Source of the DNA: a virus
IMG/VR virus record: IMGVR_UViG_3300028635_000005
Direction: 5' to 3' (one strand)
DNA: 64,000 nt
The notes under the pieces were generated by a model that had not been told where the DNA came from, did not search any database, and saw nothing but the letters and a program-made list of their open reading frames with translations. The position numbers and the translations under genes were made by a program. Below are positions 3,055 to 61,127 of the stretch, one piece after another (the first letter of the stretch is position 1; each line of letters starts with the position of its first letter).

Positions 3055-3069
3055 TTTTATTTTATATAT
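3055..3069 (-). promoter_or_regulatory. Late-type promoter motif
   Basis: Minus strand ATATATAAAATAAAA directly before the ATG at 3054. Confidence 0.6.
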
Positions 3070-12068: not shown

Positions 12069-12607
12069 TATTTTTTGGTTTTAAGATCAATCTTCTTAAC
12101 TTTAGTATTATCATCCAAAGGTTGTTTCTTTTCTTCTTTTTCGTCTTTATTCTTATCTAATGATACAGATGATTTTTTATTTATATTAGATTTATTTTCA
12201 ACAGTTTCATCAGATTTATCTTTTTCGCCTTCTTCCTTTGTAAATGATGCGCTATTTTTCTTTGGGTCAAGACTTGATTTTCCCGTAGAATTTTGATCTT
12301 TTGTATCAGGTGTGTCTTTAGTTTTAATTTCCCCATACATTCCAGGTTTAAATTCTTTTACGGAATCAAGGTCCGTTTGTAGGTCATATCTTGGATCAAA
12401 CTTGGCATCACCCATTTTAATTTCAACTTTAATTTCTGTTTGGCTCTTTTGATATTCTTTTTTAAGCCAATCATAAGATTTCTTATTTTCATCTGGAATA
12501 ATAAGACCATCGGCATTTGTTAATCCTTCTCCCCCATCCATCATAGGAAGTGCATCTTCATAAAGTTTTTCTAAATAATCATTAATGTTGAAATTACCTG
12601 CTTTCAT
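12068..12607 (-). CDS. Hypothetical late protein with leader ending KLYE
   Basis: MKAGNFNINDYLEKLYE; K/D/E-rich C-terminus; late motif upstream. Confidence 0.7.
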   Translation of the reverse strand: MKAGNFNINDYLEKLYEDALPMMDGGEGLTNADGLIIPDENKKSYDWLKKEYQKSQTEIKVEIKMGDAKFDPRYDLQTDLDSVKEFKPGMYGEIKTKDTPDTKDQNSTGKSSLDPKKNSASFTKEEGEKDKSDETVENKSNINKKSSVSLDKNKDEKEEKKQPLDDNTKVKKIDLKTKK

Positions 12608-12615
12608 AAGTATGG

Positions 12616-12630
12616 TTTTATTTTATATAT
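12616..12630 (-). promoter_or_regulatory. Late-type promoter motif
   Basis: ATATATAAAATAAAA. Confidence 0.65.
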
Positions 12631-26625: not shown

Positions 26626-26640
26626 TTTTATTTTATATAT
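26626..26640 (-). promoter_or_regulatory. Late-type promoter motif
   Basis: ATATATAAAATAAAA heading the 26619-24920 operon. Confidence 0.65.
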
Positions 26641-29463: not shown

Positions 29464-29480
29464 TACAATATCCTTTTTAT

Positions 29481-29509
29481 TTTATATAATTAATTTAAAC
29501 CCCAGTTTT
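29481..29509 (-). promoter_or_regulatory. Middle-type promoter AAAACTG-N16-TATAAA
   Basis: One mismatch in the -35 element. Confidence 0.55.
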
Positions 29510-32602: not shown

Positions 32603-32621
32603 TGTTTAAAATAATTTTGTT

Positions 32622-32912
32622 TTATATCTCTTTTTCCCATAAATGTTTTACTACACGATAATTTGAGTACTTTACTCGTTCTAAGTATCCCATTTCAACC
32701 AACCTATCCAAATCATCTGAAAGGGATTTTAAAATTCTTGTTCGTGTTTTAAAATATGCTTCCTTGGGCTTAAATTGTGATGTTTCTGGATCATATCTTC
32801 GTTCTTCGTCTAAAAAATAAACAATTTCAAATAAAAGATCTTCGTGGGTTGGTTCTTCGATAATTCCCATAAGATTTTTAATTTTTACATTTGATATATC
32901 AAGGGGCTTCAT
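32622..32912 (-). CDS. Hypothetical protein (possible winged helix)
   Basis: DLDRLVEMGYLERVKYSNYRV wing-like end. Confidence 0.55.
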   Translation of the reverse strand: MKPLDISNVKIKNLMGIIEEPTHEDLLFEIVYFLDEERRYDPETSQFKPKEAYFKTRTRILKSLSDDLDRLVEMGYLERVKYSNYRVVKHLWEKEI

Positions 32913-32928
32913 ATAAAAATGGTTTATT

Positions 32929-32957
32929 TTTATAAATCAAAAAGGGTCTGAAGTTTT
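32929..32957 (-). promoter_or_regulatory. Middle-type promoter AAAACTT-N16-TATAAA
   Basis: Heads the 32912-gp41 operon; overlaps terminator. Confidence 0.65.
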
Positions 32958-32969
32958 ATTCCAGACCTT
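32939..32969 (-). terminator. Intrinsic terminator
   Basis: AAGGTCTG/CAGACCCTT stem plus U-tract. Confidence 0.65.
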
Positions 32970-32993
32970 AAATAACTGTTAAATAGAAGATGT

Positions 32994-34954: not shown

Positions 34955-35353
34955 TCAATCTAAATAGTTTAACAATGTTTGGAATCTCCAGAAAATTCTC
35001 TTTTCTGCCTCTTTCTTTGTTAAAAATCCTGCCCAATCAATCTCGGATTTATCAAGCTTAGTTATCTTAATAGGCTTAGATAATTTTATGACAAAAAAGT
35101 AAACTCTTTTATAAAGTTTTCCTCTTTCATCTATATAATTTATGTATCCTTCATCTGAAATAGGGGTTTTCTCAATATCTATAAAAACACCAATTTCTTC
35201 TTTTGTTTCTCGGATAGCAGCATCAAGAATTTCTTCGTCTTTTTCGACATGTCCTTTTGGAAATGAATAAGAGTTCCACCATTTTTGACCAGTTGGGTGG
35301 CATAAAAGAATTTTGTTGTCTGCAATAAGAACAAGACCAGCTGAAATAGTCAT
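34955..35353 (-). CDS. NUDIX hydrolase
   Basis: FPKGHVEKDEEILDAAIRETKEEIG Nudix box. Confidence 0.93.
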   Translation of the reverse strand: MTISAGLVLIADNKILLCHPTGQKWWNSYSFPKGHVEKDEEILDAAIRETKEEIGVFIDIEKTPISDEGYINYIDERGKLYKRVYFFVIKLSKPIKITKLDKSEIDWAGFLTKKEAEKRIFWRFQTLLNYLD

Positions 35354-35411: not shown

Positions 35412-37112
35412 TTAAATTATAATATCTCCGTATACATCAGTTAGTATCGTTGAAAATTTAGCAGTATTTGTCCATGGCTCTATATCATACCCTGATGTGA
35501 TTGGAGGTGTATGTAAAACAGCTGTTGGATTATCATCAAATGAATCAGCTGCAACTGTTGGTGCAATTGGGGGATACATATTTATTGTGTTAAGAGAAGG
35601 ACAATCTGCAAACGCAGCATTTCCGATACTTGTAACAGCGAAAGGAATATCTATCAAGGCTAAAGATTCACAGCCAATGAACGCAACATCCCTAATACTT
35701 AATAATGATGTAAAGCTAGCACTTTCAAGATTTCTACAGAAATTCATTATTGCTTCTGGCATGCTAAAATGAGCAAATGGTGAAATTTCTATACCATTTT
35801 CCATATCATCTAAACATACCATATCAATTACGCATCCAGTATCTTTAAAGTGTATCAAACTCGTTGCACACGTTGAATCAGCAAATAAGCCTCCCCTTAA
35901 TGTTATATCTTTGCCACCTCTTAATGTTACTTCGTTTCCATTGACTAAAACTGATGTAAACGGCGTTCCATAAGTTGGCAAATCAAAGAACGTGTTCCAG
36001 TTACTTATTGAGGTAGCATCGGCAACTGGTGCATTAGAAATATTGTCAAATGTCAATGTTAATTGCATAAGGTCAGGAATTATCTGTACAAACTTAGCAG
36101 CATTTGTCCAAGGTGCAACATCATATCCCGAAGCATCGTAAGAGATATGAAGAGTAGCAGCATAATCGCCAAAAGTATTATCCGCATTAACTGTTGGGGC
36201 AATTGCAGGATACATGTTTACTGTATTAAGGGAAGAACAATTTGCAAACGCATCAGTTCCAATACTTGTAACATTAATAGGTATAGTTATAGAAGTAAGG
36301 GCAGTGCACCCTTCAAACGCATTATTTCCGATACTTATGATATTATTGGGCATAACTATAGAAGTAAGGGCCTGACACCAGGCAAATGTATAGGATCCAA
36401 TCGTTGTAACATCGTCAGGTATAATTATAGAAGTAAGGACTTTACAGGCTGCAAATGCACTATTTCCAATACTTGTAACACTATTTGGCAAAGTTATAGA
36501 AGTAAGGGACTCACAACTAGCAAATGCACTATTTCCAATACTTGTAACATTATTGCCTAATGTTACTGCGGAAAGAGAAAAACAATAATGAAATGCTTCG
36601 TTTTCAATACTTGTAACACTGTTTGACAAAGTTATAGAAGTAAGGATTATACAACTTGTAAATGCACTATTTCCAATACTTAATAATGATGTGAAGCTAG
36701 CACTTTCAAGATTTCTGCAGATCTTTGAATCTTCTGGTGGTATTATATAAACAAATGGCGTAATTGTTAAATAATTTTCTGGCTCATTGATACATATCAT
36801 ATCAACTATACATCCCATGTCTTTAAGATGTATGAGACTTGTTTCACATATCGAATTAGCGAATAAACCTCCCCTTAATGTTATATTTTTACCACCTTTT
36901 AATGTTACTTCATTTCCTTCAACTGAAACTGACGTAAAAGGTGTTCCGTAGGTTGGCAGATCAAAAAATGTGTTCCATTCATTGACACTCATTGCGTTTG
37001 TAACAGGAACATTGGATATATCATCGAAAGTTAATATTAAATTAGAAGCCGGCATCCATCCGTACTTGTTATTTAATTGGGCGTATTTTCCCTGATAAAT
37101 TGCTAGGGGCAT
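35412..37112 (-). CDS. BspA-type leucine-rich-repeat protein, two-module
   Basis: 23-aa repeats (VTSIGNSAFxxCxxLTSITLP); duplicated LTFDxISNxPV..WNTFFDLPTYGTPFTSV domain. Confidence 0.9.
   Translation of the reverse strand: MPLAIYQGKYAQLNNKYGWMPASNLILTFDDISNVPVTNAMSVNEWNTFFDLPTYGTPFTSVSVEGNEVTLKGGKNITLRGGLFANSICETSLIHLKDMGCIVDMICINEPENYLTITPFVYIIPPEDSKICRNLESASFTSLLSIGNSAFTSCIILTSITLSNSVTSIENEAFHYCFSLSAVTLGNNVTSIGNSAFASCESLTSITLPNSVTSIGNSAFAACKVLTSIIIPDDVTTIGSYTFAWCQALTSIVMPNNIISIGNNAFEGCTALTSITIPINVTSIGTDAFANCSSLNTVNMYPAIAPTVNADNTFGDYAATLHISYDASGYDVAPWTNAAKFVQIIPDLMQLTLTFDNISNAPVADATSISNWNTFFDLPTYGTPFTSVLVNGNEVTLRGGKDITLRGGLFADSTCATSLIHFKDTGCVIDMVCLDDMENGIEISPFAHFSMPEAIMNFCRNLESASFTSLLSIRDVAFIGCESLALIDIPFAVTSIGNAAFADCPSLNTINMYPPIAPTVAADSFDDNPTAVLHTPPITSGYDIEPWTNTAKFSTILTDVYGDIII
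36230..36700. repeat. 69-bp tandem LRR repeats
   Basis: AATGCACTATTTCCAATACTT recurs at 36454, 36523 and 36661 (69-bp period). Confidence 0.85.
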
Positions 37113-37121
37113 TTATTTATT

Positions 37122-37136
37122 TTTTATTTTATATAT
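37122..37136 (-). promoter_or_regulatory. Late-type promoter motif
   Basis: ATATATAAAATAAAA. Confidence 0.65.
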
Positions 37137-39094: not shown

Positions 39095-40735
39095 TTAAAA
39101 TAGTGCTTTAGCGTATATTAAATTTCCAGGCACAGGATTAAATCCTATAGTTGTTAGAATTCGATTAAATGGTTCAATGATTGTTTTTTCAAACTGAAGA
39201 TCATAATCTACTTCGGGTGCAAATTCGTAAGGAAAATTACCGGGCAAAAACCCAAAGACTTCATTGCCATCTTTTGAATAATAGAATTTAACCTTATCTC
39301 CAGTTTTAATAATGTTATATTTAGTCTTCCATTTTTTACTGTTAAGAACCTGATGATTATACATTGCTGAGGCTCTTACGTTCTGGGGACATTTTTCTGC
39401 TAACACCACTTCTCTTTTATCCTCTAAGCAATATTTTTCATAATTTCCTAATGCTTGTGTTTTTGCAATGTCTTCAGGATTTTGTAAAACATACTCTTTT
39501 TTATACTCTTTTAGTCGGTTAACAACATCTGCGTATTGTGTCTTTTTTCCTTTAGAACAAGTCATTTTGATTAATTCTTTAAGAACTTGTCTTGCATACT
39601 TTGGCGTTGAACCTTGAACAATTTCAATGCCCACAAACTTGATATTTTCTTGAGGTTCAATATGAACTCCAGGATCTTTCCACGCTAAATCAAGAACATA
39701 TTTCTTTTTTGCGACCATAATTGCTGAATAAGAAATTTTTTCCAATTCCAAATCCTGAATATTTTTAGTGTTATGTCGTTTTGCGTATTCTTCGTATTTC
39801 TTTTTAATAAATGATGTTAGACGAAGCTCTTTAACTTTAAGAATAAAATCAACAGGATTACCTTGATAATCACAAGACTTAAGCATTGGATCAAAAGTGA
39901 CATAACAGCTATTATGAACTAAAATATCATTTGCTATAAATGTATGCGTATCATCATCTACTTCAACATCATAAACGTATTCATTATCAAATGTTCCCAT
40001 TTCTTCGCAAGATTCTATTTCATCAAAATAAAATTTTGTTCCTAAACATAACACTTTATCTTGATAAATTACACCTTGCGGTTTTATTTCAAGTTTTTCA
40101 TTATTACGAAAAACAATTAATGAATGATCATTTGTTATAATTATTTCCTTTCCAGATTTAGTTTTAATTTTCCATTTTGGTTTTGTAACTTTATGACGTA
40201 TAATACGTTTAACTGGCGCAAAATATAACTCGTTATCCCAGTTCAATATTTTATCATTAGTTAATACTGATTCATGTCCTTCAAGAGTTGTTCCGCCGTT
40301 TGTTTTGTTTTTATTGTACCAATCTTCAATTTTAATCGAACCTTTATCCGTATGAACAATAGAGTCAGAATGAACAGAATCAGTATCCATATAGACAGTT
40401 ACCGTTTGTTCATTAATCTTGTTTGCATACGTTAACCCTAAAGCCTTATGAAGTTCAGCATCATTATGCCAGTAATCCATGAAATAGTCATCAATACATC
40501 TACTTGCAAATTTTGCGATATCTTGGCCTTGAAGTGTAACTGCTTCTGCAACATTAACGTTATATCCAACAAAAAAGACAGAAGCCGTGGCTCCATAAAC
40601 AGAGTTTATAAAAATTTTAATTGATTGCTCAAGATTATAATATTCTTCTTTAATAGACTTAAGTCGATCAATCTCGGCCTTAAGTTCTTCTATAGAGCAA
40701 TTATATGGATCAATGTTAGTTAGTTTAAATTCCAT
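39095..40735 (-). CDS. gp43: Family B DNA polymerase, C-terminal subunit (split gp43B-like) with intein
   Basis: KIFINSVYG (motif B), YMDTD|SCY (motif C), KKKYVL, FVGIEIVQGSTP; lacks the exonuclease domain and motif A. Confidence 0.92.
   Translation of the reverse strand: MEFKLTNIDPYNCSIEELKAEIDRLKSIKEEYYNLEQSIKIFINSVYGATASVFFVGYNVNVAEAVTLQGQDIAKFASRCIDDYFMDYWHNDAELHKALGLTYANKINEQTVTVYMDTDSVHSDSIVHTDKGSIKIEDWYNKNKTNGGTTLEGHESVLTNDKILNWDNELYFAPVKRIIRHKVTKPKWKIKTKSGKEIIITNDHSLIVFRNNEKLEIKPQGVIYQDKVLCLGTKFYFDEIESCEEMGTFDNEYVYDVEVDDDTHTFIANDILVHNSCYVTFDPMLKSCDYQGNPVDFILKVKELRLTSFIKKKYEEYAKRHNTKNIQDLELEKISYSAIMVAKKKYVLDLAWKDPGVHIEPQENIKFVGIEIVQGSTPKYARQVLKELIKMTCSKGKKTQYADVVNRLKEYKKEYVLQNPEDIAKTQALGNYEKYCLEDKREVVLAEKCPQNVRASAMYNHQVLNSKKWKTKYNIIKTGDKVKFYYSKDGNEVFGFLPGNFPYEFAPEVDYDLQFEKTIIEPFNRILTTIGFNPVPGNLIYAKALF
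39911..40378 (-). mobile_element. Mini-intein (156 aa) in polymerase motif C
   Basis: Starts SVHSDS, block B ITNDHSL, ends YVYDVEV..ANDILVHN, followed by Ser. Confidence 0.93.
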
Positions 40736-40800: not shown

Positions 40801-43800
40801 TTATCGTTTCACCATTTTAATCCCAATATTTGCAATAAATGGCACATTTATAGAACCTTTTTGTTCAAACATAAAATTTGAGTTTTGAAAGGAATGTGTT
40901 TCAAAGGCAAATTGTCCACGTTTAACATATACCTTTAAGTACACTTGTTTTATGTTGATTACTTTTTGAGTATACGTAGTTAATATATCAGCGTATTTAC
41001 CATTAAGAGTTTTTACAATTTCAACCATAATAGGATAAAAGATTAATCCAAAACGACTGTCATTTCCAATTTCTAGTTTTTTGATATATTGCTGTCTATA
41101 TTTCTCAGGATTAAACTGTGTTCTTGACATTTGTGATCTTCTAATGTATTCATTAATAAATAACTCATATTTTTCTTTATTATGTATTAATGCATCAAGA
41201 AATTTTAGCATTGATTCTTTTTTAAGATATTCATCTGAAGAAATTTGCAAATTTCTTAGTAAATATGAATAAGCAGAATCAGGATTATTTGATAAATGTA
41301 TCTTTGCTAATGTCATAACAGTATTATAAATAACACTTCTGGGATCTATTTGTTCAGGATTTACCCAGGGCTTAACAACGTTTTCAATAAAATCGATTTC
41401 ATTTTCATCTGTTGCTGTAATCTCGCCATTCTTGTAATTGTTATAAATTGCACGAATAATAACATCTCCACTAGGAGTTGCTCCTGTTCCAGCTTTTGAT
41501 GAAATTTTATAATCATCAAAATAAAAATCAATTAACCTTTGATTAGATGCAGTAGGATATCTTAGCCCTTTTCCAGTTTTCTTAAGTATATTAAAGAACA
41601 TTAAAGCACCCATTACTTCCCCATAATCATTTGCGATATTATTTATTGATTTTGGATCTATCCCGTTAAACCATTCAATCGGCACATTATAGACAATAGG
41701 CGTTGTTACTTTAGCATATGCTGAAAAGTCTTCAAATTTATTTTTATTATTTGGGTCATTAATTATAATCTTTGAAGATTCTATGATAAATTTTTTATAA
41801 TGTTCAGGGTATTTAGTTTCATTAATAACTTTTATAATTTTATCTAAAATTTGTTTTGAATTTAAATATGATTCAGTTGTTAACCCTAATTTATCAGGAG
41901 TTAACTCTTTACCCTTTATAACACTTTCTTCTCCTGTTTTTTTATCAAACTCAAATCTATTAGTTATTATAATAAAATCGTCCTTTTTGTATTGTTGACC
42001 AAAGACGTCGGTCGTAGGTTCAGAGAATACAATTTTATATGCATCAAATTTCCCAGATATTTCTTTTCCTGCATGTTTATCATTTTTGCCTTTAGGGACA
42101 ATTTCCATTTGATATGTACGTGGTTCTATTTTAATAGAATTTTTTAAAAAATTTATTATGTTTTTTTCTGCAGTGCCATCATTTTCTCCAAAGTTTGCAC
42201 GAATAGTTTCTCGTCCAGAAGGAGCAACAATGTCATCTGAATTCATGTCTTTAACATACAAATTTTTCCATAATTCTTGTCTTTTGTTGAATCCTTCAAA
42301 TAATCTTGGATAATGAGGTTCTTGAACACTTTCATCACCTACAATTGCCATTTGCCATTGTCTTTTTCTTCTATAGCGCTCACTGTTTGAGCCCCAGCCT
42401 GGTTCTACTTTTTTCTTAGGCTTAAGAAGAGGAGATAAAACATGTTGCCTTGCAAGATCATCCTCAGAGGTTATATATTCACCTGCATAATCTTTAATAG
42501 GAATTTGTAAATAATGAGAACCATATCCACCCATGCCTCCTTGTTTATCATCTTTCATGTCTGCAGGAATATCAATTTTCCATTGAGGGTCATTTAATAT
42601 TGAAATCTTGAGTTTATCTTCGAGATCTTTAATAATTTGAATTAACTTTTCTTTTGGGGGATAATACCAGAACGAAATATATTTTTCTTTTAGCCATATT
42701 CTTCCTGCATATTCTAAGTCTCTTCCGGGATGAATACGATTATAACCTCGTCCTATTCCAATGTCTCCGTGTGTTTTACTAGGTTTACTTATATAAAGTT
42801 TTCCTTTATGGTATCCGAACGCTCGGGTCCCTCTTCTCATCCAAAGAATTTCTTCGTCTGTTCCTTGAGGATTAACCCAATCAGGGTGTTCAAATAATCT
42901 TGGATATGGCATTTCTTGTTTGCTTTCATCGCCTACTGTGGCCATTTGCCATTGTCTTTTTCTTTTATATCTTTCACTGTTTGAGCCCCAGCCTGGTTCT
43001 ACTTTCTTTTTTGGCTTTAACAAAGGCGATAAAACATGTTGTCGTGCCAAATCTTCTTCAGATGTTATATATTTGCCAGCATAATCTTTAATAGGGATTT
43101 GTGTATAATTACGTTCATCGGCATATCCACCTTCTGTACTATTTTTCATATCGACTGGAACGTCAATTTTCCATTCTGGATCATTTATTATAGTAATCTT
43201 AAGTTTATTTTCAAGATCTTTAAGAACTTTTACAAGTTCTTTCTTCGGCGGATAATACCAAAATGAAATATATTTATTTTTGGGCCATATTCTTCCTGCG
43301 TATTTTAACTCTCTACCAGGTCTGTCACGATACTGCCCTCTACCTACTATCATGTCTCCGTGGGTTTGACGTGTTTTGCCAACATATAATTTGTCTCTAT
43401 AATAACCAAATGCCCGCGCACCTTTACGCATCCAAGGTATTTCTTCGTCCGTTCCTTCAACTTCTATCCAATCAGGACTTTCAAATAGTCGAGGATAAAT
43501 TTCTTCTTTTTTACTTTCATCGGTCATGGAAGCCATTTGCCACGCTCTTTTTCTTTTATATCTTTCACTGTTTGAGCCCCAACCCGGTAATACTTTTCTC
43601 TTAGGTTTTAATAAAGGTGATACAACGTGTTGTTGTGCCAATTCTTCTGCTGATCTTTCAGTACCCTTTTCATAATCTTTAACTTTAACATATTCTTGGT
43701 TTTCTTCTTCAGGACGCCATGTGCCCCAGTTAGGCATAGGATACGTAAAAAAATCATATTCTTTAGTTGTAGGATATTTTTTATACTCTTCAACTTCTGA

Positions 43801-44181
43801 TGGCACTTCTATCATCCATTCGCCATCATAAAAATCATATTTATAATGATCTTTTTCATAGGAATCATTTTCATCCGCATAAATTTTTTTACGTAAATCA
43901 TCTAAAACTTTTTTAAGAGTTTTTTGATCTTCGGGAAAATGCCAAAATGCAATTATTTTATAATCAGCAAATATTCTTCCGCTATATTGCCCTCGTGTAT
44001 CTCCTTTATAATCCTGAGGAGTTTTTATATTAAGGTGTGTATCACCCCATTTACCTAAATATAACTCGCCATTATAATAAGAAAAAGGAAATGTTTTTGA
44101 TTCACTCCACTCGACGATTTTTTCAATATCTGGCATATATAAAGCATTGGGATTTTCAAAAAGACGTGGATAAAATTTCAT
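40801..44181 (-). CDS. Putative virion-internal polyprotein: three repeated domains plus PD-(D/E)xK-like nuclease domain
   Basis: YPRLFE occurs 4 times, at the start of each module; C-terminal DYGEV..NQRLIDF..YKISSKAG; late promoter upstream. Confidence 0.8.
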   Translation of the reverse strand: MKFYPRLFENPNALYMPDIEKIVEWSESKTFPFSYYNGELYLGKWGDTHLNIKTPQDYKGDTRGQYSGRIFADYKIIAFWHFPEDQKTLKKVLDDLRKKIYADENDSYEKDHYKYDFYDGEWMIEVPSEVEEYKKYPTTKEYDFFTYPMPNWGTWRPEEENQEYVKVKDYEKGTERSAEELAQQHVVSPLLKPKRKVLPGWGSNSERYKRKRAWQMASMTDESKKEEIYPRLFESPDWIEVEGTDEEIPWMRKGARAFGYYRDKLYVGKTRQTHGDMIVGRGQYRDRPGRELKYAGRIWPKNKYISFWYYPPKKELVKVLKDLENKLKITIINDPEWKIDVPVDMKNSTEGGYADERNYTQIPIKDYAGKYITSEEDLARQHVLSPLLKPKKKVEPGWGSNSERYKRKRQWQMATVGDESKQEMPYPRLFEHPDWVNPQGTDEEILWMRRGTRAFGYHKGKLYISKPSKTHGDIGIGRGYNRIHPGRDLEYAGRIWLKEKYISFWYYPPKEKLIQIIKDLEDKLKISILNDPQWKIDIPADMKDDKQGGMGGYGSHYLQIPIKDYAGEYITSEDDLARQHVLSPLLKPKKKVEPGWGSNSERYRRKRQWQMAIVGDESVQEPHYPRLFEGFNKRQELWKNLYVKDMNSDDIVAPSGRETIRANFGENDGTAEKNIINFLKNSIKIEPRTYQMEIVPKGKNDKHAGKEISGKFDAYKIVFSEPTTDVFGQQYKKDDFIIITNRFEFDKKTGEESVIKGKELTPDKLGLTTESYLNSKQILDKIIKVINETKYPEHYKKFIIESSKIIINDPNNKNKFEDFSAYAKVTTPIVYNVPIEWFNGIDPKSINNIANDYGEVMGALMFFNILKKTGKGLRYPTASNQRLIDFYFDDYKISSKAGTGATPSGDVIIRAIYNNYKNGEITATDENEIDFIENVVKPWVNPEQIDPRSVIYNTVMTLAKIHLSNNPDSAYSYLLRNLQISSDEYLKKESMLKFLDALIHNKEKYELFINEYIRRSQMSRTQFNPEKYRQQYIKKLEIGNDSRFGLIFYPIMVEIVKTLNGKYADILTTYTQKVINIKQVYLKVYVKRGQFAFETHSFQNSNFMFEQKGSINVPFIANIGIKMVKR
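42313..44181 (-). repeat. Three ~197-225-codon intragenic repeats
   Basis: Modules 43498-44181, 42907-43497 and 42313-42906; shared 16-mer CACTGTTTGAGCCCCA in all three. Confidence 0.92.
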
Positions 44182-44188
44182 AGCTATA

Positions 44189-44203
44189 TTTTATTTTATA
44201 TAT
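44189..44203 (-). promoter_or_regulatory. Late-type promoter motif
   Basis: ATATATAAAATAAAA 8 nt before the ATG. Confidence 0.65.
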
Positions 44204-44270
44204 TTATGATTTAAAAATAAAAAAACCCAAATATTAAAATCTGGGCTTTCTCAAAAAACACAAGAAATTT

Positions 44271-55152: not shown

Positions 55153-55167
55153 TTTTATTTTATATAT
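55153..55167 (-). promoter_or_regulatory. Late-type promoter motif
   Basis: ATATATAAAATAAAA. Confidence 0.65.
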
Positions 55168-55698: not shown

Positions 55699-56135
55699 TA
55701 AAAAAGAGCTTTAGGTTTAAGATTCGCAGGTGCTTTCCAGTTATCATAATCCCATGCAAGAGCATCGTAACATACGATATTGTAATCGAGAATTTTCTTT
55801 GCCTCAGTTATTTGGGTGTTATCAAGGTCTGGGCAATGCTCTAGAAGAACCTGAAGCATACGGCCTCTCATTTCCTCTACGTTATCAGCCATAAGCTCGA
55901 CACCATAAACAGATGCGAGCGCTTGAAGAGGTGGGTGCCCTGCTTCGAGTTTACGGGCAAGAACACGCACAAGAAAGTTGCCGTTACCAGCTGAGTTGTC
56001 GAGGAACGTTTTAGAAGGGTCTGAGAAAACTTCGGACGGAAGCTTGTCGAGCATCTCATCTACGAGAGCAAGAGGTGTAAAGTCCTCAGCAGTTTGTTTA
56101 CGGCGGGCCTTGCGTTTATGTTCGAGAGAGGTCAT
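55698..56135 (-). CDS. Stand-alone SAM-binding half of an amino-methyltransferase
   Basis: Motifs X (EDFTP), I (FLDNSAGNGNFL), II (YGVELMADN) and III (IVCYDAL); no NPPY/DPPY. Confidence 0.8.
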   Translation of the reverse strand: MTSLEHKRKARRKQTAEDFTPLALVDEMLDKLPSEVFSDPSKTFLDNSAGNGNFLVRVLARKLEAGHPPLQALASVYGVELMADNVEEMRGRMLQVLLEHCPDLDNTQITEAKKILDYNIVCYDALAWDYDNWKAPANLKPKALF

Positions 56136-57415
56136 TATTTAACTTGGGATTCGATGTAATCAATTTCTTCCTGCGTAAGGCCATAAAATTTATATATATT
56201 ATTAATATTAAATATATCACATAGTATAGGTTTTTTAAACCATTGTAGGGCGTAATAGTATTTGTTTTGGATTTGATTAAAGCAATATTGCATTACAAAT
56301 GTAACTAACTTACTATCAAGAAATTTTATTATATTATTTGATTCGTTTTCATCCTTAGTAATAACATATGCACAAGCAGATGATCCATTCATAATATTTT
56401 CATTTTCTTTTACTATCAAATATTTATTTCCTGATATTCCGAAAATAATTTTAGATTTTTTTGAATCTTCGTGAAATATATCTGTATATGCAAAAATAAA
56501 ATTGTTATTAGTTAATTTTTGAATTATTTTTGTAGTTCCGTGTTTTTTATCATCTATTATTCTTGAAACAGATCTTTGAAATTCATTATTGTTTGATAAT
56601 AATTTATGCAAAATACTATTTATTATTGAATTATTTACCTGAGAAACAAACGAGTTTTTACGTAAAACTGTATTAAAATTAATAATAGATTTATTTATAT
56701 CATAACATTCTATTATCGTATCAGATTCCTTTACATTTTCATTTTTAACTACAAAATAACAAAATGTATCTCCTACGTTAAAGTATTTTTTAGGTGTGCC
56801 GACGGCTAAATATTTAATATTTTTAAAATTATGTTTAAAAGATACTTGGCTGGCGGTTCTGCCCAATAACATATCTATAGCCGGCAATGGCGAAATAAGA
56901 CTTACGTAGCCATTATCTTTGCATACATCAAATGATTTATTTATAAAAGCTGGATATATTTTGTGTTTGCTCTCAGTACTTTTTTGAAATGGCGGGTTAC
57001 CTACAACTACGTCAAATTTAGGCATTTCTTCTATTTTTATTTTATTTATATCTTTAATTATTCCTACTCTGTTAACGCTATCCTTACTCCCGTAAACCAT
57101 TTTGCTTACTAACCACTTATTTCTTTCCACGTTAACATAAGCCTTAACCATATTATTTATAATATGCTTATATCTTTCAGTTTCGTTCTCTATCGCTATA
57201 TTTTTCATTAGACGCAACACAACTTCAAGCATAAAGACTCCACTCTTAGCGCATGGATCACACCATAAAAGATTTGGATCTGTCCAAATCTCCTTGGGTA
57301 GTTTGTCTAACATTTCTTCAACAAGCTTAACCGGAGTAAATATTTCCTCATTGCTTGGGGAATTTAAGTATGCTAACAGTTTCTTTCTTTTTTCAAGTTG
57401 TTCTATTATGGTCAT
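56135..57415 (-). CDS. Eco57I-like N6-adenine MTase-TRD protein A
   Basis: EEIFTP, degenerate DPCAKSG, FDVVVGNPPF, variable TRD, C-terminal YKFYGLTQEEIDYIE. Confidence 0.85.
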   Translation of the reverse strand: MTIIEQLEKRKKLLAYLNSPSNEEIFTPVKLVEEMLDKLPKEIWTDPNLLWCDPCAKSGVFMLEVVLRLMKNIAIENETERYKHIINNMVKAYVNVERNKWLVSKMVYGSKDSVNRVGIIKDINKIKIEEMPKFDVVVGNPPFQKSTESKHKIYPAFINKSFDVCKDNGYVSLISPLPAIDMLLGRTASQVSFKHNFKNIKYLAVGTPKKYFNVGDTFCYFVVKNENVKESDTIIECYDINKSIINFNTVLRKNSFVSQVNNSIINSILHKLLSNNNEFQRSVSRIIDDKKHGTTKIIQKLTNNNFIFAYTDIFHEDSKKSKIIFGISGNKYLIVKENENIMNGSSACAYVITKDENESNNIIKFLDSKLVTFVMQYCFNQIQNKYYYALQWFKKPILCDIFNINNIYKFYGLTQEEIDYIESQVK

Positions 57416-57483: not shown

Positions 57484-59685
57484 TTAAAATTTTTCCATAA
57501 GGTGAAAACTTTCAATAGCTTTATTCATTTTATATTTGTTAATAAAACCACTTTCAACTAAATATTTAAAGTCTTCTATGTTAACCCCACATATATTAAA
57601 AAACATTTCCTTATCTTTTGTTTTAAAAATATCTTCTACTTTTTCTTCGGCTTCATCGGATACTACTAAAAAATTAGGAATAGCGCTTGTTATTGTTCGG
57701 GCTTTATTAATCAATTCATTTATTAAAATCTTTCTTTCCTTTTTGTTTCTTTCTCCTTCAATAGTTGTTTTAAATGTTTTTCCTTTGCCACAATCATCTT
57801 CTGATACATTCAAATCTTCTATTTTTCCGTTCGGTGTTTTTTCTACATTAGACAATATGTCTATCATTTTTGAATCTATGTCAACTCTTTTATTAAACAT
57901 CCAATCACGATTAAATTTGGCAATGGTGTTTGTTGCATCAGCACCAATCTTTACAATTTTACTAAGTAACTCTTCGACGTTTGATTCAATAAGTTGATTT
58001 CCTTCATATGCCATAACTCTCATTGTATCAAGAAGCCTACGAATTATTTGCAAGTTTGATGTTTCAGTGCTACCGTTTTCTTCGGCAAAGTTATACATCA
58101 TGTTCAATGCCCTGTTGGGATTAAAGTCAAAAATATAAGCATCTGTTTTAGCCGCTTCTTTATTAGGGGTTTTCCCGCGAAATGCTGCTTGCCAGTATGT
58201 TTGTACACTTTCAAGTTCATTAAGAAAAAAGACACTATTCCATTCCTTAACAGTTACACCAGTATTTAATTTTCCACAAGAGATTGTAATAGTTCCAACA
58301 TAATTTTTGCCATTTGCTATTTGATTATCAACTTTAAAAATGGCATCACGTACAAGATTTAATGTGTCATTACTTTCACCATCATTATCTCCGGCTGCAA
58401 CCACTATTTTATATTTTGAGAAAAAAGAATGATTATTAAGCATACGAGCCATGGCTTTAACTGAGTTAACAGAAGTCATGTACCAATACATATGCTTAAG
58501 GTGCTTTTTAATTTTATCATCATTAAAAGGTGATCTCAAAAAACGAGGTTCTGGTGTTGCAAGATTATCAAGAAAAGTTTGTACTGATGCCTCATGTTCA
58601 AATACGAATTCATCGTTGGCCGCAAAAAATTTGTTTAAAGTAAGGCGTTCATTTTCATCAAAGGCATCAATATATTTAAGAATTTCATCTGAAATTTTGT
58701 ATGTATATAAATTTATACGGGGAAGCCACTTATATGCTTCATTTTCAGGATCAGCTTTCTTTGTATGCTGTTCATCTATATAACTCCAAGAATAAATTTG
58801 ATCTTCATCATAATATCCTGATGATATAAGATTAATAGGAGTACCTGAAAGATCAAGACGATAAGAATAATTTAACGTTTTAATAAAAGCCTGTGCTTTA
58901 TCTGAAGGAAATCCGAAATGAACTTCATCAATGATTACAAGATCAAAATGTTCATGCAATGCTTTATTCCATTTTTCTTTGGGTTTTCCATTTAAGTTTT
59001 TCCCTAAAATATCTTGGAATGAAGAAAATAAAACAAAATTTTCTTTGTCGGTGATATTTATGGGTTCATTTTTTGAAAAATCAAGAGAATGTAAAAATTC
59101 ATAGCCTTCAAATTTAACTTCATTAAGAAGATCTGTTTCCCATGAGTCTCCTACCGCAGGTTTGTACGTAAGAATAAGGACTCTTTTTGCATTCATTTTT
59201 TTCATGAGACTATATGCAGCAAAAGTTTTTCCAAAACGCATTATAGCATTAAAGAGAAAAACGTTTCCTTTTTTATTGGAAAAATAATCATAAGCCTTAT
59301 TAACTGCATCTCCCTGTTCCGTACGTAGTGTATAATTATTAGGTCTTTGTATATTAGTCGTAAGCTTATTGTATGCAGCAAAAATAGGTTTAGGCGTTAT
59401 AGTCTCAAACCATTCACCTCCTACTCGATAGGGACGCAATATTTTATGGAGTTTACTCTCAAGGTCTGATGAATTCATGTTAATATCATCGGCGTTAAAA
59501 ACATGAATAAGTTCTACCTTTTCATCTCTATTACCGGCAGTAAATTGTTCACGTATGCGAATCATTGCAGCTTCTTCAATAGTTTCAGCTTTTCTATCAG
59601 CTTTACCCACTTTAAATCGACCAAGAGATTTCTTTACATCTGTGGTGTATACATAGACACTACGCCACAATTTTGTGTTTTCCAT
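57484..59685 (-). CDS. GIY-YIG (T5orf172-like) nuclease fused to a ResIII-type SF2 helicase
   Basis: VYVY..FKVGKA..RIREQ..LESKLH..GEWF; NAIMRFGKT, IIDEVH, LSGTP, TGVTV, QAAFRG. Confidence 0.88.
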   Translation of the reverse strand: MENTKLWRSVYVYTTDVKKSLGRFKVGKADRKAETIEEAAMIRIREQFTAGNRDEKVELIHVFNADDINMNSSDLESKLHKILRPYRVGGEWFETITPKPIFAAYNKLTTNIQRPNNYTLRTEQGDAVNKAYDYFSNKKGNVFLFNAIMRFGKTFAAYSLMKKMNAKRVLILTYKPAVGDSWETDLLNEVKFEGYEFLHSLDFSKNEPINITDKENFVLFSSFQDILGKNLNGKPKEKWNKALHEHFDLVIIDEVHFGFPSDKAQAFIKTLNYSYRLDLSGTPINLISSGYYDEDQIYSWSYIDEQHTKKADPENEAYKWLPRINLYTYKISDEILKYIDAFDENERLTLNKFFAANDEFVFEHEASVQTFLDNLATPEPRFLRSPFNDDKIKKHLKHMYWYMTSVNSVKAMARMLNNHSFFSKYKIVVAAGDNDGESNDTLNLVRDAIFKVDNQIANGKNYVGTITISCGKLNTGVTVKEWNSVFFLNELESVQTYWQAAFRGKTPNKEAAKTDAYIFDFNPNRALNMMYNFAEENGSTETSNLQIIRRLLDTMRVMAYEGNQLIESNVEELLSKIVKIGADATNTIAKFNRDWMFNKRVDIDSKMIDILSNVEKTPNGKIEDLNVSEDDCGKGKTFKTTIEGERNKKERKILINELINKARTITSAIPNFLVVSDEAEEKVEDIFKTKDKEMFFNICGVNIEDFKYLVESGFINKYKMNKAIESFHLMEKF

Positions 59686-59795: not shown

Positions 59796-61127
59796 TTAGT
59801 TAACGTGGGATTCAATATAATTAATTTCTTCTGACGTAAGATTAAAATATTTATAGATATCTTTATCCGTCCAATTTTTTGTAAAATCGACCTTTGGGAT
59901 ATTTTTTGCAACTATAGTTGTAACAAATCCACTATATCGATTATTTTGTATTAAAAATTTTATCAATTTTGAATTCATATAACTGATAACAGATTCTTTG
60001 TTATCATTTTTATCCAATTTTACTATCCAATTTTGATTATTTGCAATACCCAATTTATCAAAATCTACATAAGGTCTAAATTTATCAGCGCCACCTTTAG
60101 GGATTATAATTTTGTTAAATCTATAATTATCTGGTTTTTCATAATACGCATAGTGTGCTTTATCTAAATTTCCGCCTATAACATAAGCTTTATATTTATG
60201 CGTTGCCGTTTTTACATTTGATCTATCTTCGGGTTTATAAAATATTCCTACAGATTTTATCTGTAATTTAGGAATATTTTTATTAAATAATGTTTTATTA
60301 TTAATTAATATTGCTAAAGAATTAAAGTCCCTTGGCATCATGTCTATGTCTTTAATATCTATTATCATTTTTCCTTCATCTGTAATTAATTCAGTACCAT
60401 TATAATTTTTTGATTTTTTCATAAGAAATACACTAAATGAAGATGCGACAGAAAAATATTTTTTAATATCTTTTGAGACATTCAAATATTTTAGATTATA
60501 TTTTTTAAAAATATCTATTAATTTTACGCGTCCTTTTCTAATGTCATATGTTCCGGCTAACCATGTCGGAGGAGTTATTAACATTAAATAGGCATCATTT
60601 TTAATAAGTTCTATTCCCTTTTGTATAAAAAGGGCCCATAAAGGTTGTTTATAAGCTTTAACTTTATTTCCTTTACTTTGTCGATTTTCTAAACTTTGAT
60701 ATGGAGGGTTTCCTACTATTACATCAAACTTAGGCATATCTTCTATTTTTATTTTATTTATATCTTCGATTATTCCCACCTTGTTAACATCGTCTTTGCT
60801 TCCATAGATCATCTTGCTTACTAGCCATTTGTTTCTTTCCACGTTAACATAAGCCTTAACCATATTATTTATAATATGCTTATATCTTTCAGTTTCATCT
60901 TTTATAGGTAAGCTTCTCATTAGTCGTATTATCACCTCGAGAATAAAGACTCCACTTTTAGCACAAGGATCACACCATAAGAGATTTGGGTTAGACCAAA
61001 CTTCGGGCGGAAGTCTGTCAAGCATTTCTTCAACAAGTTTAGCAGGAGTAAATACTTCCTCATTGCTTGGGGAATTCAAATATGATAGCAGTTTTTTTCT
61101 TTTTTCAAGCTGTTCTATTATGGACAT
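59796..61127 (-). CDS. Eco57I-like N6-adenine MTase-TRD protein B
   Basis: EEVFTP, degenerate DPCAKSG, FDVIVGNPPY, different TRD, C-terminal YKYFNLTSEEINYIE. Confidence 0.85.
   Translation of the reverse strand: MSIIEQLEKRKKLLSYLNSPSNEEVFTPAKLVEEMLDRLPPEVWSNPNLLWCDPCAKSGVFILEVIIRLMRSLPIKDETERYKHIINNMVKAYVNVERNKWLVSKMIYGSKDDVNKVGIIEDINKIKIEDMPKFDVIVGNPPYQSLENRQSKGNKVKAYKQPLWALFIQKGIELIKNDAYLMLITPPTWLAGTYDIRKGRVKLIDIFKKYNLKYLNVSKDIKKYFSVASSFSVFLMKKSKNYNGTELITDEGKMIIDIKDIDMMPRDFNSLAILINNKTLFNKNIPKLQIKSVGIFYKPEDRSNVKTATHKYKAYVIGGNLDKAHYAYYEKPDNYRFNKIIIPKGGADKFRPYVDFDKLGIANNQNWIVKLDKNDNKESVISYMNSKLIKFLIQNNRYSGFVTTIVAKNIPKVDFTKNWTDKDIYKYFNLTSEEINYIESHVN

What the first reader, a model, noticed from the sequence alone, without database searches (positions are those of the whole stretch)
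40801..44181. Four-module virion polyprotein punctuated by an identical YPRLFE protease-like site
Seen: the 1126-aa ORF starts MKFYPRLFE, and YPRLFE recurs exactly at 43480-43497, 42889-42906 and 42295-42312. Each internal copy follows a (T/G)DES linker. Three homologous ~200-aa domains follow (THG..GRI(W/F)..I(S/A)FW..P..SPLLKP..PGWGSNSERY.RKR.WQM), then a ~490-aa domain with a PD-(D/E)xK-like pattern (DYGEV..LIDF..ISSK, an S-x-K variant). A late promoter lies 8 nt upstream. Known: the T4 prohead protease gp21 cuts after Glu in (I/L)-x-E, and T4 internal proteins carry a short N-terminal capsid-targeting leader (MKTYQEFIAE). Inference: this is a precursor packaged in the head and cut into three sibling effector domains plus a nuclease, delivered to the host with the DNA. 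Repeating the whole leader before every module suggests tandem gene duplication and fusion of leader-bearing effector genes. The repeated domain matches no family I recognise.
Basis: partly seen in the sequence, partly recalled or inferred. Interest (0 to 1): 0.85.

Follow-up and report, generated by a model that had tools for sequence, protein, structure and literature searches.

The report
Modular phage protein with repeated junction peptide
A huge wastewater phage encodes a 1126-residue protein made of three copies of a widespread but unnamed domain plus a fourth domain. Each part is introduced by the same short flexible peptide, which looks like the signal that phage T4 uses to load proteins into its head and cut them free, though cutting has not been shown.

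Summary
ORF 40801-44181 (-) encodes 1126 aa with YPRLFE four times, against 0 expected by chance. It has three homologous ~200-aa modules and a ~500-aa C-terminal domain.

New here:
- The module is a very large unnamed family: 915 clusters at 50% identity, viral metagenomes only, with no Pfam, PHROG or PDB match. It occurs 1 to more than 9 times per protein and is fused to many unrelated domains.
- The junction peptide generalises to [K/R]-[L/I]-x-E. It falls in low-confidence, unstructured parts of both AF2 models.
- The peptide also precedes the unrelated C-terminal domain when that domain stands alone, and it starts other unrelated ORFs of this phage.
- Its Glu is kept at 66/71 internal junctions but at only 10/23 C-terminal copies. 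In 10 of those the stop codon sits exactly at the Glu position. That is what a P1 cleavage residue predicts.
- Relatives of this phage (portal 67% identical) carry a T4 gp21-type protease homologue.
- In at least 7 distinct contigs the gene sits in the baseplate/neck operon.

Verdict: partly supported. A CTS-like targeting and cleavage junction is the best reading (about 0.45). Packaging and cleavage are untested, the nuclease call is only a weak lead, and "late" promoter is unproven. The scan noted this same stretch before, in an overlapping window.

The parts
44219..44250 (-). Terminator-like hairpin (CCCAG..TTGGG followed by a T run) after the upstream 270-aa ORF
   Evidence: Read directly from the sequence. 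Function not tested.
44189..44202 (-). Promoter-like 14-mer TATATAAAATAAAA, ending 7 nt before the ATG
   Evidence: There are 7 exact copies in the window, all on the coding strand and all just upstream of ORF starts. With up to 2 mismatches there are 38 matches against 16.7 expected (upstream regions listed). Its temporal class is unknown.
44155..44181 (-). N-terminal leader MKFYPRLFE (aa 1-9), including motif copy 1
   Evidence: In the wider family, leader lengths peak at 8-11 aa. T4 CTS comparators were read from NC_000866.
43498..44154 (-). Module 1 plus its acidic linker (aa 10-228)
   Evidence: HMM domain 1, i-Evalue 1.5e-70; alignments A1 and A2.
43480..43497 (-). Junction motif copy 2, YPRLFE (aa 229-234)
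42907..43479 (-). Module 2 plus linker (aa 235-425)
   Evidence: HMM domain 2, i-Evalue 4.6e-76. AF2 model pLDDT 77.6, with an ordered core at model residues ~20-125 and ~141-150. It is 96% identical to module 2 of P0004, whose other parts are only 50-74% identical to the window protein.
42889..42906 (-). Junction motif copy 3, YPRLFE (aa 426-431)
42313..42888 (-). Module 3 plus linker (aa 432-623)
   Evidence: HMM domain 3, i-Evalue 1.1e-74.
42295..42312 (-). Junction motif copy 4, YPRLFE (aa 624-629), before the unrelated C-terminal domain
   Evidence: It lies within the first 16 residues of the C-domain AF2 model, which have pLDDT < 50.
40804..42294 (-). C-terminal domain (aa 630-1126). It is autonomous and of unknown function. 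Invariant residues include N-D-x-G-E, D-F and S-S-K.
   Evidence: Stand-alone homologues of 508-565 aa exist. Alignment A3. AF2 pLDDT 83.4. Only weak fold leads: Pol-beta-type NTases Z ~5 on the first 135 model residues, and PD-(D/E)xK enzymes Z 3.6-4.3 on residues ~203-512. R.HinP1I is an ESM-Atlas lead at 0.89.

Best explanation
P0001 is an accessory, cassette-built protein of a huge T4-related phage. The host is probably a Bacteroidota bacterium and the habitat is activated sludge. The protein has three copies of a widespread unnamed ~200-aa domain and a ~500-aa domain of unknown, possibly nucleic-acid-directed, activity.

Each unit is preceded by a flexible junction peptide, Y-P-R-L-F-E. 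This is the local form of a portable leader (basic/hydrophobic residues followed by [L/I]-x-E) that also starts other, unrelated proteins of this phage.

The most likely mechanism is the T4 one. The hydrophobic part of the peptide (Y-P-x-L) targets the precursor into the assembling prohead. The phage's gp21-type, Glu-specific head maturation protease then cuts after the Glu of [L/I]-x-E. The precursor would be resolved into three ~23-27 kDa modules and one ~58 kDa domain, which stay in the head and leave with the DNA.

Shown here: the anatomy, the family, the junction logo, the low-confidence unstructured state of the junction in the models, its portability, the position-dependent need for Glu, cassette exchange, and a gp21-type homologue in relatives.

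Inferred only: packaging, cleavage, delivery, and what the modules do.
For: 1. Junction logo. Over 283 distinct module starts that carry E-x-P-[DNESG] (291 of the 357 starts examined), P4 is K/R in 50%, P3 is L in 70% and I in 23%, and P1 is E by selection. N-terminal leaders peak at 8-11 aa. This has the same form as the T4 substrates read from NC_000866: ipII/ipIII MKTYQEFIAE|A, gp24 MAKINELLRE|S, gp22 MLKEQLIAE|A. For the T4 CTS, residues 4 and 7 serve targeting and residues 8 and 10 serve processing (PMC9026906).
2. There are n+1 motifs for n units, including before the unrelated C-terminal domain. When that domain stands alone it has a 13-21-aa leader ending (L/I)NE(A/S), about 10 aa before its first conserved Trp. 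P0007 has three unrelated domains separated by EIFE|G and HLNE|G.
3. Glu is present at 48/52 module-to-module junctions and 18/19 module-to-other junctions, but at only 10/23 C-terminal copies. In 10/23 the stop codon stands exactly at the Glu position (Fisher p = 1.7e-6).
4. AF2 models. YPR has pLDDT < 50 and LFESPD is intermediate in the module model. The whole motif has pLDDT < 50 before the C-terminal domain. No strand is formed.
5. Leaders on other ORFs. MKKLVREKLYE, MKKLVRESLIKE, MKLVREHLNE, MKAKFVNE, MKARTINE, MKKKKINE and MKRIMIEESLYE start mutually unrelated ORFs of the window. That is 8/51 N-termini against 1.1 expected from the internal rate, using a regex chosen after seeing the data.
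6. T4-type virion genes are present in the window: portal phrog_213, gp4-like head closure phrog_218 and gp2-like end protector phrog_429. Relatives with a 67%-identical portal carry a phrog_207 (T4 gp21 family) homologue, E 4.4e-15.
7. In at least 7 distinct viral contigs the module gene sits on the same strand in a fixed slot. The slot lies between an adaptor-like gene (weak match, E 6e-8) and the gp25-like (E 0.002) and gp6-like (E 2e-21) baseplate genes.
8. The gene is accessory and mosaic. There are 1-3 modules in the orthologous slot, it is absent from G007/G008, and single modules have been swapped between diverged lineages. T-even internal-protein loci behave similarly (PMC3012670).
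Against: - There is no proteomic or biochemical evidence at all. No cultured phage carries the family.
- No protease gene was found in the window or in five other related fragments. The homologue found in G007/G008 lies among replication genes and could be a diverged paralogue.
- L-x-E-[S/N]-P-[D/N] is one contiguous conserved block, and LFESPD has intermediate pLDDT. L and E could therefore simply be an N-terminal cap of the module.
- 16 of 52 module-to-other-domain junctions in the wider family have no [L/I/M]-x-E.
- Conserved C-terminal YYPxL copies that lack Glu show that the peptide has a role apart from cleavage.
- In this phage the gene lies among replication genes.
- In relatives, similar leaders start very many small ORFs and even a helicase-like ORF. 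That is more proteins than a head would be expected to hold, unless these huge capsids carry very many.
Confidence: 0.45

Rival explanations
1. The protein is an uncleaved multidomain protein. The junction peptide is a short linear docking motif (Y-P-x-L) plus the N-terminal cap (L-x-E-S-P-D) of the module, set in flexible acidic linkers. The protein works as beads on a string, for example as a multivalent binder that carries a variable catalytic or binding domain.
For: - C-terminal copies keep YYPxL but often lack Glu.
- L-x-E-x-P-D is a contiguous conserved block with intermediate pLDDT.
- Copy number of 1 to more than 9 and fusion to many partner domains are typical of binding modules.
- The module has invariant F, H, G-R, F-W, P and H residues, which could form a ligand site.
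Against: - The same [L/I]-x-E leader precedes unrelated folds that lack the S-P-D cap: the C-terminal domain, the cytidylyltransferase-like domain of P0007, and other window ORFs.
- Glu is kept at 18/19 junctions to non-module domains but is lost at chain ends. A cap of the next module does not explain this.
Confidence: 0.28
2. The protein is tail- or baseplate-associated cargo or a structural accessory. The leader would load it into or onto the contractile tail, by analogy with the N-terminal packing signals of extracellular contractile injection system cargo (recalled from memory, not checked here), rather than into the head.
For: In L002-L007, L009, L010/L012, L013/L014, L017 and L018 the gene lies immediately upstream of gp25-like and gp6-like baseplate wedge genes and downstream of an adaptor-like gene.
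Against: - Gene position is weak evidence for location in the particle.
- In the window phage and in L008/L015 the gene lies among replication genes.
- The [L/I]-x-E-after-leader form matches head-protease substrates.
- No tail-protein fold was found.
Confidence: 0.12
3. The polyprotein processes itself. The module would be a cis-acting, Glu-specific peptidase that uses its invariant His residues and cuts its own flanks.
For: - The module has invariant H55 and H163, plus conserved Ser/Thr and Glu positions.
- One motif flanks each module on both sides.
Against: - No protease fold was detected. The best structural match is Z 4.0, and no assemblin or gp21-type match appears.
- Stand-alone C-terminal-domain proteins and other leader-bearing ORFs have no module in cis.
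Confidence: 0.05
4. The repeated peptide is mainly a by-product of cassette recombination. The conserved tail, linker and motif DNA would be the homology that drives duplication and swapping, and the peptide would have no function of its own.
For: - A 221-nt direct repeat covers the tail, linker and motif in three copies.
- Identity between relatives is mosaic by module.
- Assembly graphs branch at these repeats in several samples.
Against: - The six residues are kept through synonymous changes within one gene.
- The [L/I]-x-E pattern is kept across relatives of about 30% identity, where no DNA homology is left.
Confidence: 0.05

Closest known systems
T4 internal proteins IPI/IPII/IPIII and Alt: capsid targeting sequence (CTS) plus gp21 cleavage
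   Same: - A short N-terminal leader starting MK, with an aromatic or hydrophobic residue near position 4 and ending [L/I]-x-E (T4 MKTYQEFIAE, here MKFYPRLFE).
- The leader is shared by otherwise unrelated, fast-evolving accessory proteins (PMC3012670).
- T4-type portal, gp2-like and gp4-like genes are in the window, and a gp21-family homologue is present in relatives.
   Different: - The leader is repeated inside one ORF before every domain, as in a polyprotein. T4 IPs are single small basic proteins.
- Extra copies sit at C-termini.
- The cargo domains are large (23-58 kDa) and belong to a family absent from cultured phages.
- Neither packaging nor cleavage has been shown.
Processed head and ejection proteins of giant phages (phiKZ, 201phi2-1, SPN3US)
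   Same: - Huge phage.
- Many head proteins are cut after Glu at a short motif by a gp21-related protease.
- Several sites can occur per substrate.
- Paralogues share conserved N-terminal peptides (PMC5694885; PMC9026906).
   Different: - Those motifs are (S/A/G)-x-E and the propeptides are often longer than 100 aa.
- There the cuts remove propeptides rather than separating tandem folded cargo domains.
- No sequence or fold relation to those proteins was found.
Polyproteins of RNA viruses (for example picorna- and potyviruses), recalled from general knowledge
   Same: One ORF, several folded products, and a short conserved site at every junction that is read by one viral protease.
   Different: - This is a DNA phage.
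- The putative protease is encoded elsewhere.
- The units are tandem paralogues whose number varies between strains.
PD-(D/E)xK restriction-type nucleases with a non-acidic third residue (R.HinP1I-like)
   Same: - The C-terminal domain has invariant E..D..S-S-K in a helix, strand, strand arrangement.
- There are weak structural matches to I-Ssp6803I, HhaI and EcoRV (Z 3.6-4.3).
- R.HinP1I is a language-model lead at 0.89.
   Different: - There is no sequence match to Pfam or PDB.
- The Z values are well below the level that is meaningful for this tool.
- The domain is about 500 aa, and its first subdomain weakly resembles Pol-beta-type nucleotidyltransferases (Z ~5).

Membership tests
T4-type CTS-bearing packaged proteins | N-terminal leader of about 10-20 aa ending in [L/I]-x-E | tested here: met
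   MKFYPRLFE. Family logo: P3 L/I 93%, P1 E; leaders peak at 8-11 aa. T4 comparators were read.
T4-type CTS-bearing packaged proteins | The same leader occurs on otherwise unrelated proteins of the phage | tested here: met
   8 of 51 window N-termini against 1.1 expected (regex chosen after seeing the data). Seven of the eight show no pairwise BLAST similarity; the eighth (12068-12607) matches only the ORF read from 21659, which is not among the eight. The leader also precedes the stand-alone C-terminal domain in other phages.
T4-type CTS-bearing packaged proteins | The phage encodes a gp21-type (Peptidase_S77 / phrog_207) head maturation protease | tested here: inconclusive
   None was found among the ~55 window ORFs scanned, and none in G001-G006. 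A phrog_207 homologue (E 4.4e-15 and 1.7e-8) is present in G008 and G007, whose portals are 67% identical. The whole genome of this phage is not held.
T4-type CTS-bearing packaged proteins | The protein is present in the virion head | not testable with these tools
   The phage is uncultured and the family is absent from GenBank phages.
T4-type CTS-bearing packaged proteins | The leader is removed by cleavage after Glu | not testable with these tools
   Indirect evidence only: Glu is kept at 66/71 internal junctions but at 10/23 chain-end copies.
Viral polyprotein | A conserved short site at every domain junction | tested here: met
   Four exact YPRLFE copies. Glu is present at 48/52 and 18/19 junctions of the YP type. 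In the wider family, 16/52 junctions to other domains lack [L/I/M]-x-E.
Viral polyprotein | Junctions are accessible, not part of a folded core | tested here: met
   The motif lies in stretches without secondary structure, at pLDDT < 50 to about 70, in two AF2 models. These are predictions, not experiments.
Viral polyprotein | Separate mature products exist | not testable with these tools
   No proteomic data are available.
PD-(D/E)xK nuclease (C-terminal domain) | Restriction-endonuclease-like alpha-beta-beta-beta-alpha-beta core | tested here: inconclusive
   VIA-align gives Z 4.3 (I-Ssp6803I), 3.9 (HhaI) and 3.6 (EcoRV) over model residues ~203-512. Foldseek finds nothing.
PD-(D/E)xK nuclease (C-terminal domain) | Catalytic D ... 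(D/E)-x-K with an upstream acidic residue | tested here: inconclusive
   E241, D271 and S280-S281-K282 (alignment A3 numbering) are invariant. Ser stands where the acid is expected, and no compensating acid was identified.
PD-(D/E)xK nuclease (C-terminal domain) | Sequence match to a nuclease family profile | tested here: not met
   There is no Pfam hit even at E 10 for 10 family members, and no PDB sequence hit at E 10.
Pol-beta-type nucleotidyltransferase (first subdomain of the C-terminal domain) | NTase fold with the hG[GS] and DxD catalytic motifs | tested here: inconclusive
   Z 4.5-5.3 to Rel, TUT1, Pol beta and CD-NTases over model residues 1-135. The conserved block reads RANFGxNDG, which is not the canonical motif.

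The most novel reading that the evidence does not exclude
Huge phages may use a plug-and-play polyprotein system for packaged cargo. In this reading, any domain cassette that carries the [K/R]-[L/I]-x-E junction peptide is loaded into the prohead and cut free by the head protease. Recombination at the conserved tail, linker and junction DNA would then let strains change the number and kind of proteins they inject. The ~200-aa module (915 clusters, no known fold) would be a new, abundant class of injected phage protein.
Probability: 0.35. Interest if true: 0.85.

Novelty: new variant of a known kind. Interest (0 to 1): 0.62.

Why it matters
If the junction peptide is a combined targeting and cleavage signal, this would be the first phage polyprotein of packaged cargo. 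It would also give a simple sequence rule for predicting which proteins huge, uncultured phages carry into the cell.

Such proteins are prime candidates for early anti-defence and host-takeover functions. A portable 6-10-residue tag could also be used to load foreign proteins into large capsids, as the T4 CTS already is.

Independently of the mechanism, the work defines a very large domain family (915 clusters at 50% identity). It is confined to viral metagenomes and has no Pfam, PHROG or PDB relative. A second autonomous 500-aa family was also defined. Both are worth structural and biochemical study.

Tried and rejected
- Contexts came from the search for related loci and the genome search instead.
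- **Family and sequence searches that found nothing.** Pfam and PHROGs on the whole protein gave nothing. Pfam on 10 C-terminal-domain relatives at E 10 gave nothing recurrent. Pfam on 10 proteins with long non-module parts gave only one weak cytidylyltransferase hit. Pfam on 9 leader-bearing window ORFs gave nothing.
- **Cultured phages and prokaryote genomes.** tblastn and megablast against 50,697 GenBank phages found no match for the whole protein or for two diverse single modules. The 185,579 prokaryote genomes held no relative. Alignment A2 was too diverse for that scan.
- **Fold searches.** For the module, Foldseek against PDB and BFVD found nothing, and the best VIA-align wide match was Z 4.0, to Stay-Green. 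For the C-terminal domain, Foldseek found nothing and VIA-align gave only Z of about 5 or less. PDB profile searches found nothing.
- **ESM Atlas.** For the module it returned only unnamed clusters at 0.90 or below.
- **T4 head genes in related records.** T4 gp23 (PF07068, phrog_138) and gp21 (PF03420, phrog_207) were not found in G001-G006. These records are 10-40% fragments and the controls did not ring, so this shows nothing about absence. In G007, phrog_138 gave only E 0.003.
- **Capsid candidates in the window.** BLASTP of ORFs 21736-23091 and 19584-21659 against T4 gp23 showed no similarity.
- **Sliding-clamp idea, dropped.** I considered a clamp-binding motif because of the neighbouring 270-aa ORF. 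That ORF has no clamp annotation, and in most other phages the module gene lies in the structural operon.
- **Literature.** The motif strings are absent from the full-text library.
- **Read laying.** It showed only contigs that break at the repeats and an alternative branch at 42412. There was no joint and no usable expression evidence.


Full report
**1. Observation**

ORF 40801-44181 on the minus strand is a single open frame of 1126 aa that starts MKFYPRLFE. A degenerate pattern for YPRLFE hits four times in the window, all in this frame: 44155-44172, 43480-43497, 42889-42906 and 42295-42312. None were found in 100 shuffles.

The four copies use three different codon spellings, so selection acts on the peptide. 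Internal copies follow (T/G)DES..E linkers.

An HMM built from relatives finds three modules at aa 5-238, 232-434 and 429-633, with i-Evalues between 1e-70 and 1e-76. At the DNA level there is a 591-594-nt tandem repeat in three copies. The best-kept 221 nt of it cover the module tail, the linker and the motif.

**2. The two domain families**

Neither the module nor the C-terminal domain matches Pfam or PHROGs or any PDB sequence.

The module:
- A profile search of 1.84 billion cluster representatives finds 915 proteins at E <= 1e-3 and 576 at E <= 1e-10. Up to 9-14 matched stretches occur per protein.
- In the 156 proteins analysed, copy number runs from 1 to 11.
- Modules stand N-terminal (47 cases), C-terminal (13) or between (2) other regions of 120 aa or more.
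- Partner domains include the C-terminal domain of the window protein, ankyrin repeats, PF10902, PF01467 cytidylyltransferase-like domains, and several recurrent unnamed domains.
- Single-module proteins exist.
- The family is absent from 50,697 GenBank phages and from 185,579 prokaryote genomes. It occurs in IMG/VR contigs that CheckV rates as 10-40% fragments of very large genomes.
- AF2 on a 45-row alignment gives pLDDT 77.6, with a confident alpha/beta core.
- Foldseek (PDB and BFVD) and an exhaustive VIA-align search give nothing above Z 4.0.
- Invariant residues are F39, H55, G77-R78, F88-W89, P92 and H163.

The C-terminal domain:
- It also exists alone as proteins of 508-565 aa.
- AF2 gives pLDDT 83.4.
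- Fold leads are weak. The first ~135 model residues give Z ~5 to Pol-beta-type nucleotidyltransferases. Residues ~203-512 give Z 3.6-4.3 to three PD-(D/E)xK enzymes. R.HinP1I is a 0.89 language-model lead.
- The invariant E..D..S-S-K residues fit a variant nuclease site, but this remains a lead and not a finding.

**3. The junction peptide**

- **Logo.** Of 357 module starts examined, 291 carry E-x-P-[DNESG]. Their 283 distinct contexts show P4 K/R 50%, P3 L 70% / I 23%, P2 N/F, P1 E (by selection), P1' S/N, P2' P (by selection) and P3' D/N. N-terminal leaders are mostly 8-11 aa. YPRLFE is the local form of this pattern.
- **Count.** A protein with n units has n+1 motif copies.
- **Other folds.** The same [L/I]-x-E precedes unrelated folds. 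Stand-alone C-terminal-domain proteins start MLKFKDFVEKFLNE|S or MATFNDIRARFEMAINE|A. P0007 separates three unrelated domains by EIFE|G and HLNE|G. L002-L007 start with two copies before another unrelated domain.
- **Models.** In both AF2 models the motif shows no secondary structure. YPR has pLDDT < 50 and LFESPD is intermediate before the module. All six residues have pLDDT < 50 before the C-terminal domain.
- **Other ORFs of this phage.** Prompted by earlier notes of this scan, I checked the window. MKKLVREKLYE (start 55143), MKKLVRESLIKE (3988), MKLVREHLNE (25409), MKAKFVNE (25198), MKARTINE (12934), MKKKKINE (29463) and MKRIMIEESLYE (26311) start ORFs that show no pairwise similarity. That is 8 of 51 N-termini against 1.1 expected from the internal rate of the same regex, which I chose after seeing the data. 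None has a Pfam match.
- **Relatives.** Relatives show the same habit even more densely, often followed by DVLKPKS.

**4. A discriminating test: is the Glu needed everywhere?**

At sites of the form [YF]-P-x-[LIM]-x, the next residue is:
- Glu at 48/52 module-to-module junctions.
- Glu at 18/19 junctions to a non-module domain; the one exception is a chance match.
- Glu at only 10/23 copies that lie at the chain end. In 10/23 the stop codon stands exactly where Glu would be (YYPRLK*, YYPRLN*, YYPQLF*), and in the rest 1-3 residues follow.

Fisher p is 1.7e-6. The sequences are 50%-identity cluster representatives but are still related.

So Y-P-x-L-x is kept for its own sake, and Glu is needed only when a chain follows, whatever that chain is. 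This is what a P1 residue of a cleavage site predicts. A simple N-terminal cap of the next module does not predict it.

It also fits the split of roles known for the T4 CTS. There, residues 4 and 7 serve targeting and residues 8 and 10 serve processing (PMC9026906).

**5. Context**

- **Window content.** It is 30.7% G+C and carries T4-type genes: portal phrog_213, head closure phrog_218, end protector phrog_429, UvsX-like, gp41-like, gp46/47-like, topoisomerase II and a UvsW-like helicase. It also has a sigma-70-type factor and a split family-B polymerase whose C-half holds a mini-intein.
- **Host.** Some genes have Bacteroidota-type TTTG...TAnnTTTG upstream elements, and Shine-Dalgarno sequences are lacking.
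- **Promoter-like motif.** P0001 has the 14-mer TATATAAAATAAAA 7 nt before its ATG. Seven exact copies lie directly upstream of ORFs, and four of those ORFs bear leaders. It is a phage-specific promoter-like element. Its timing is unknown.
- **Variable slot.** Syntenic relatives L008 and L015 hold one-module variants in the same slot, upstream of the PolB C-half. In L015 the module is joined to a different C-terminal part. G007 and G008 (portal 67% identical) have no module gene there. The gene is therefore accessory.
- **Structural operon elsewhere.** In at least 7 distinct contigs the module gene occupies a fixed same-strand slot. It lies between an adaptor-like gene (phrog_211, E 6e-8) and gp25-like (E 0.002) and gp6-like (E 2e-21) baseplate genes.
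- **Protease.** G008 and G007 encode a phrog_207 (T4 gp21 family) homologue, E 4.4e-15 and 1.7e-8. It aligns with the N-x-R-[IL]-Y...GE.N block of T4 gp21. The window has no ORF at the corresponding place.
- **Mosaicism.**

| Relative | Module 1 | Module 2 | Module 3 | C-terminal domain |
|---|---|---|---|---|
| P0002 vs window | 96% | 56% | 100% | 99% |
| P0004 vs window | 74% | 96% | (none) | 50% |

  Single cassettes therefore move between lineages.
- **Habitat.** The locus is held by activated-sludge and wastewater runs of at least 15 studies. Their assembly graphs branch at the repeats.

**6. Mechanism and rivals**

- **Best reading (0.45).** The peptide is a CTS-like targeting signal with a gp21-type cleavage site at every junction, so P0001 is a precursor of four packaged products.
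- **Main rival (0.28).** There is no cleavage, and the peptide is a docking motif plus domain cap in flexible linkers.
- **Other rivals.** Tail-associated cargo (0.12), self-processing (0.05) and a recombination by-product (0.05).

Points against the best reading:
- There is no direct evidence of packaging or cleavage.
- The contiguous L-x-E-S-P-D conservation could be structural.
- 16/52 junctions in the wider family lack [L/I/M]-x-E.
- Leader-bearing ORFs are surprisingly abundant in relatives.

**7. Comparison with known systems**

The closest system is the T-even internal proteins and Alt. These are diverse cargo that share only a CTS and are cut by gp21 (PMC3012670; PMC5694885).

The differences are:
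- The leader is repeated before each domain of one ORF.
- Some copies sit at chain ends.
- The cargo families are new.

Giant-phage head proteins are also cut after Glu. However, they are cut at (S/A/G)-x-E, and the cuts remove long propeptides.

I therefore class this as a new variant of a known kind. The membership features that define the kind, namely virion location and cleavage, remain untested.

Noticed in passing
window 3055-3068, 12616-12629, 26626-26639, 29475-29488, 37122-37135, 44189-44202, 55153-55166 (all - strand): There are seven exact copies of TATATAAAATAAAA, each directly upstream of an ORF start. The portal gene has a close variant (TATATAAATAAATAAAA). This is probably the promoter of a phage-specific transcription class; a sigma-70-type factor is encoded at 9706-10329.
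   Followed up: partly
window, upstream of 56135-57415, 57484-59685, 59796-61127 and 34955-35353: These upstream regions carry TTTG ... TAtaTTTG-like elements, which match the Bacteroidota sigma-A promoter consensus. ORFs lack Shine-Dalgarno sequences. Both point to a Bacteroidota host.
   Followed up: no
window ORF starts at 55143, 29463, 26311, 25409, 25198, 12934, 12607 and 3988 (- strand): Mutually unrelated, mostly small and often acidic ORFs begin with a basic-hydrophobic leader ending [L/I/V/F]-x-E, for example MKKLVREKLYE, MKKLVRESLIKE and MKLVREHLNE. None has a Pfam match.
   Followed up: partly
L050 (G008:C1:2000-20000) and L051 (G007:C1:178000-197000): In relatives, at least 11 ORFs start MRAKFTNE, MKLVNE, MKFVNE, MKARFVKE and similar, and many continue with (D)VLKPKS. 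A 591-aa helicase-like ORF starts MGMLDILKPKSKSE. This second N-terminal element is unexplained. LKPK also occurs in the conserved tail of the module (SPLLKPKKKV).
   Followed up: no
L050:7805-8389 (G008:C1:9804-10388): A 194-aa homologue of the T4 gp21 head maturation protease family (phrog_207, E 4.4e-15) lies between UvsX-like and gp41-like replication genes. That is an odd place for a head gene, and it could be a diverged paralogue. The window has no gene at the matching position (32603-32993 holds only a ~96-aa ORF).
   Followed up: partly
window 39095-40735 (-): This is the C-terminal half of a split family-B DNA polymerase. It is 546 aa here and 395 aa in relatives G007/G008. The extra ~150 aa match Pfam Intein_splicing, indicating a mini-intein next to the DTD motif.
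   Followed up: partly
P0002, P0003 and P0004 compared with window 40801-44181: Identity is mosaic by module. For example, window module 2 is 96% identical to that of P0004, whose C-terminal domain is only 50% identical. Contigs of several samples branch at 42412. Cassettes are exchanged by recombination in the conserved tail, linker and motif DNA.
   Followed up: yes
L002-L007, L009, L010/L012, L013/L014, L017, L018: These contigs share a conserved gene string: a ~405-aa gene, a ~475-aa gene, a 244-aa adaptor-like gene, then one or two variable module genes. These are followed by a 120-aa gp25-like gene, a ~630-aa gp6-like gene, a 90-aa gene and a ~1000-1277-aa gene. The module slot is the only variable position.
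   Followed up: partly
window 19584-21659 (-): If read from the ATG at 21659, this 691-aa unannotated ORF starts MIAKINEL.., which resembles the T4 gp24 N-terminus MAKINELLRE. Its C-terminal part is weakly similar (E 2e-6) to the leader-bearing 179-aa ORF 12068-12607. There is no similarity to T4 gp23.
   Followed up: partly
window 35412-37112 (-): This is a 566-aa BspA-type leucine-rich-repeat protein (PF13306, E 2.5e-62). It sits behind an exact copy of the promoter-like 14-mer.
   Followed up: no
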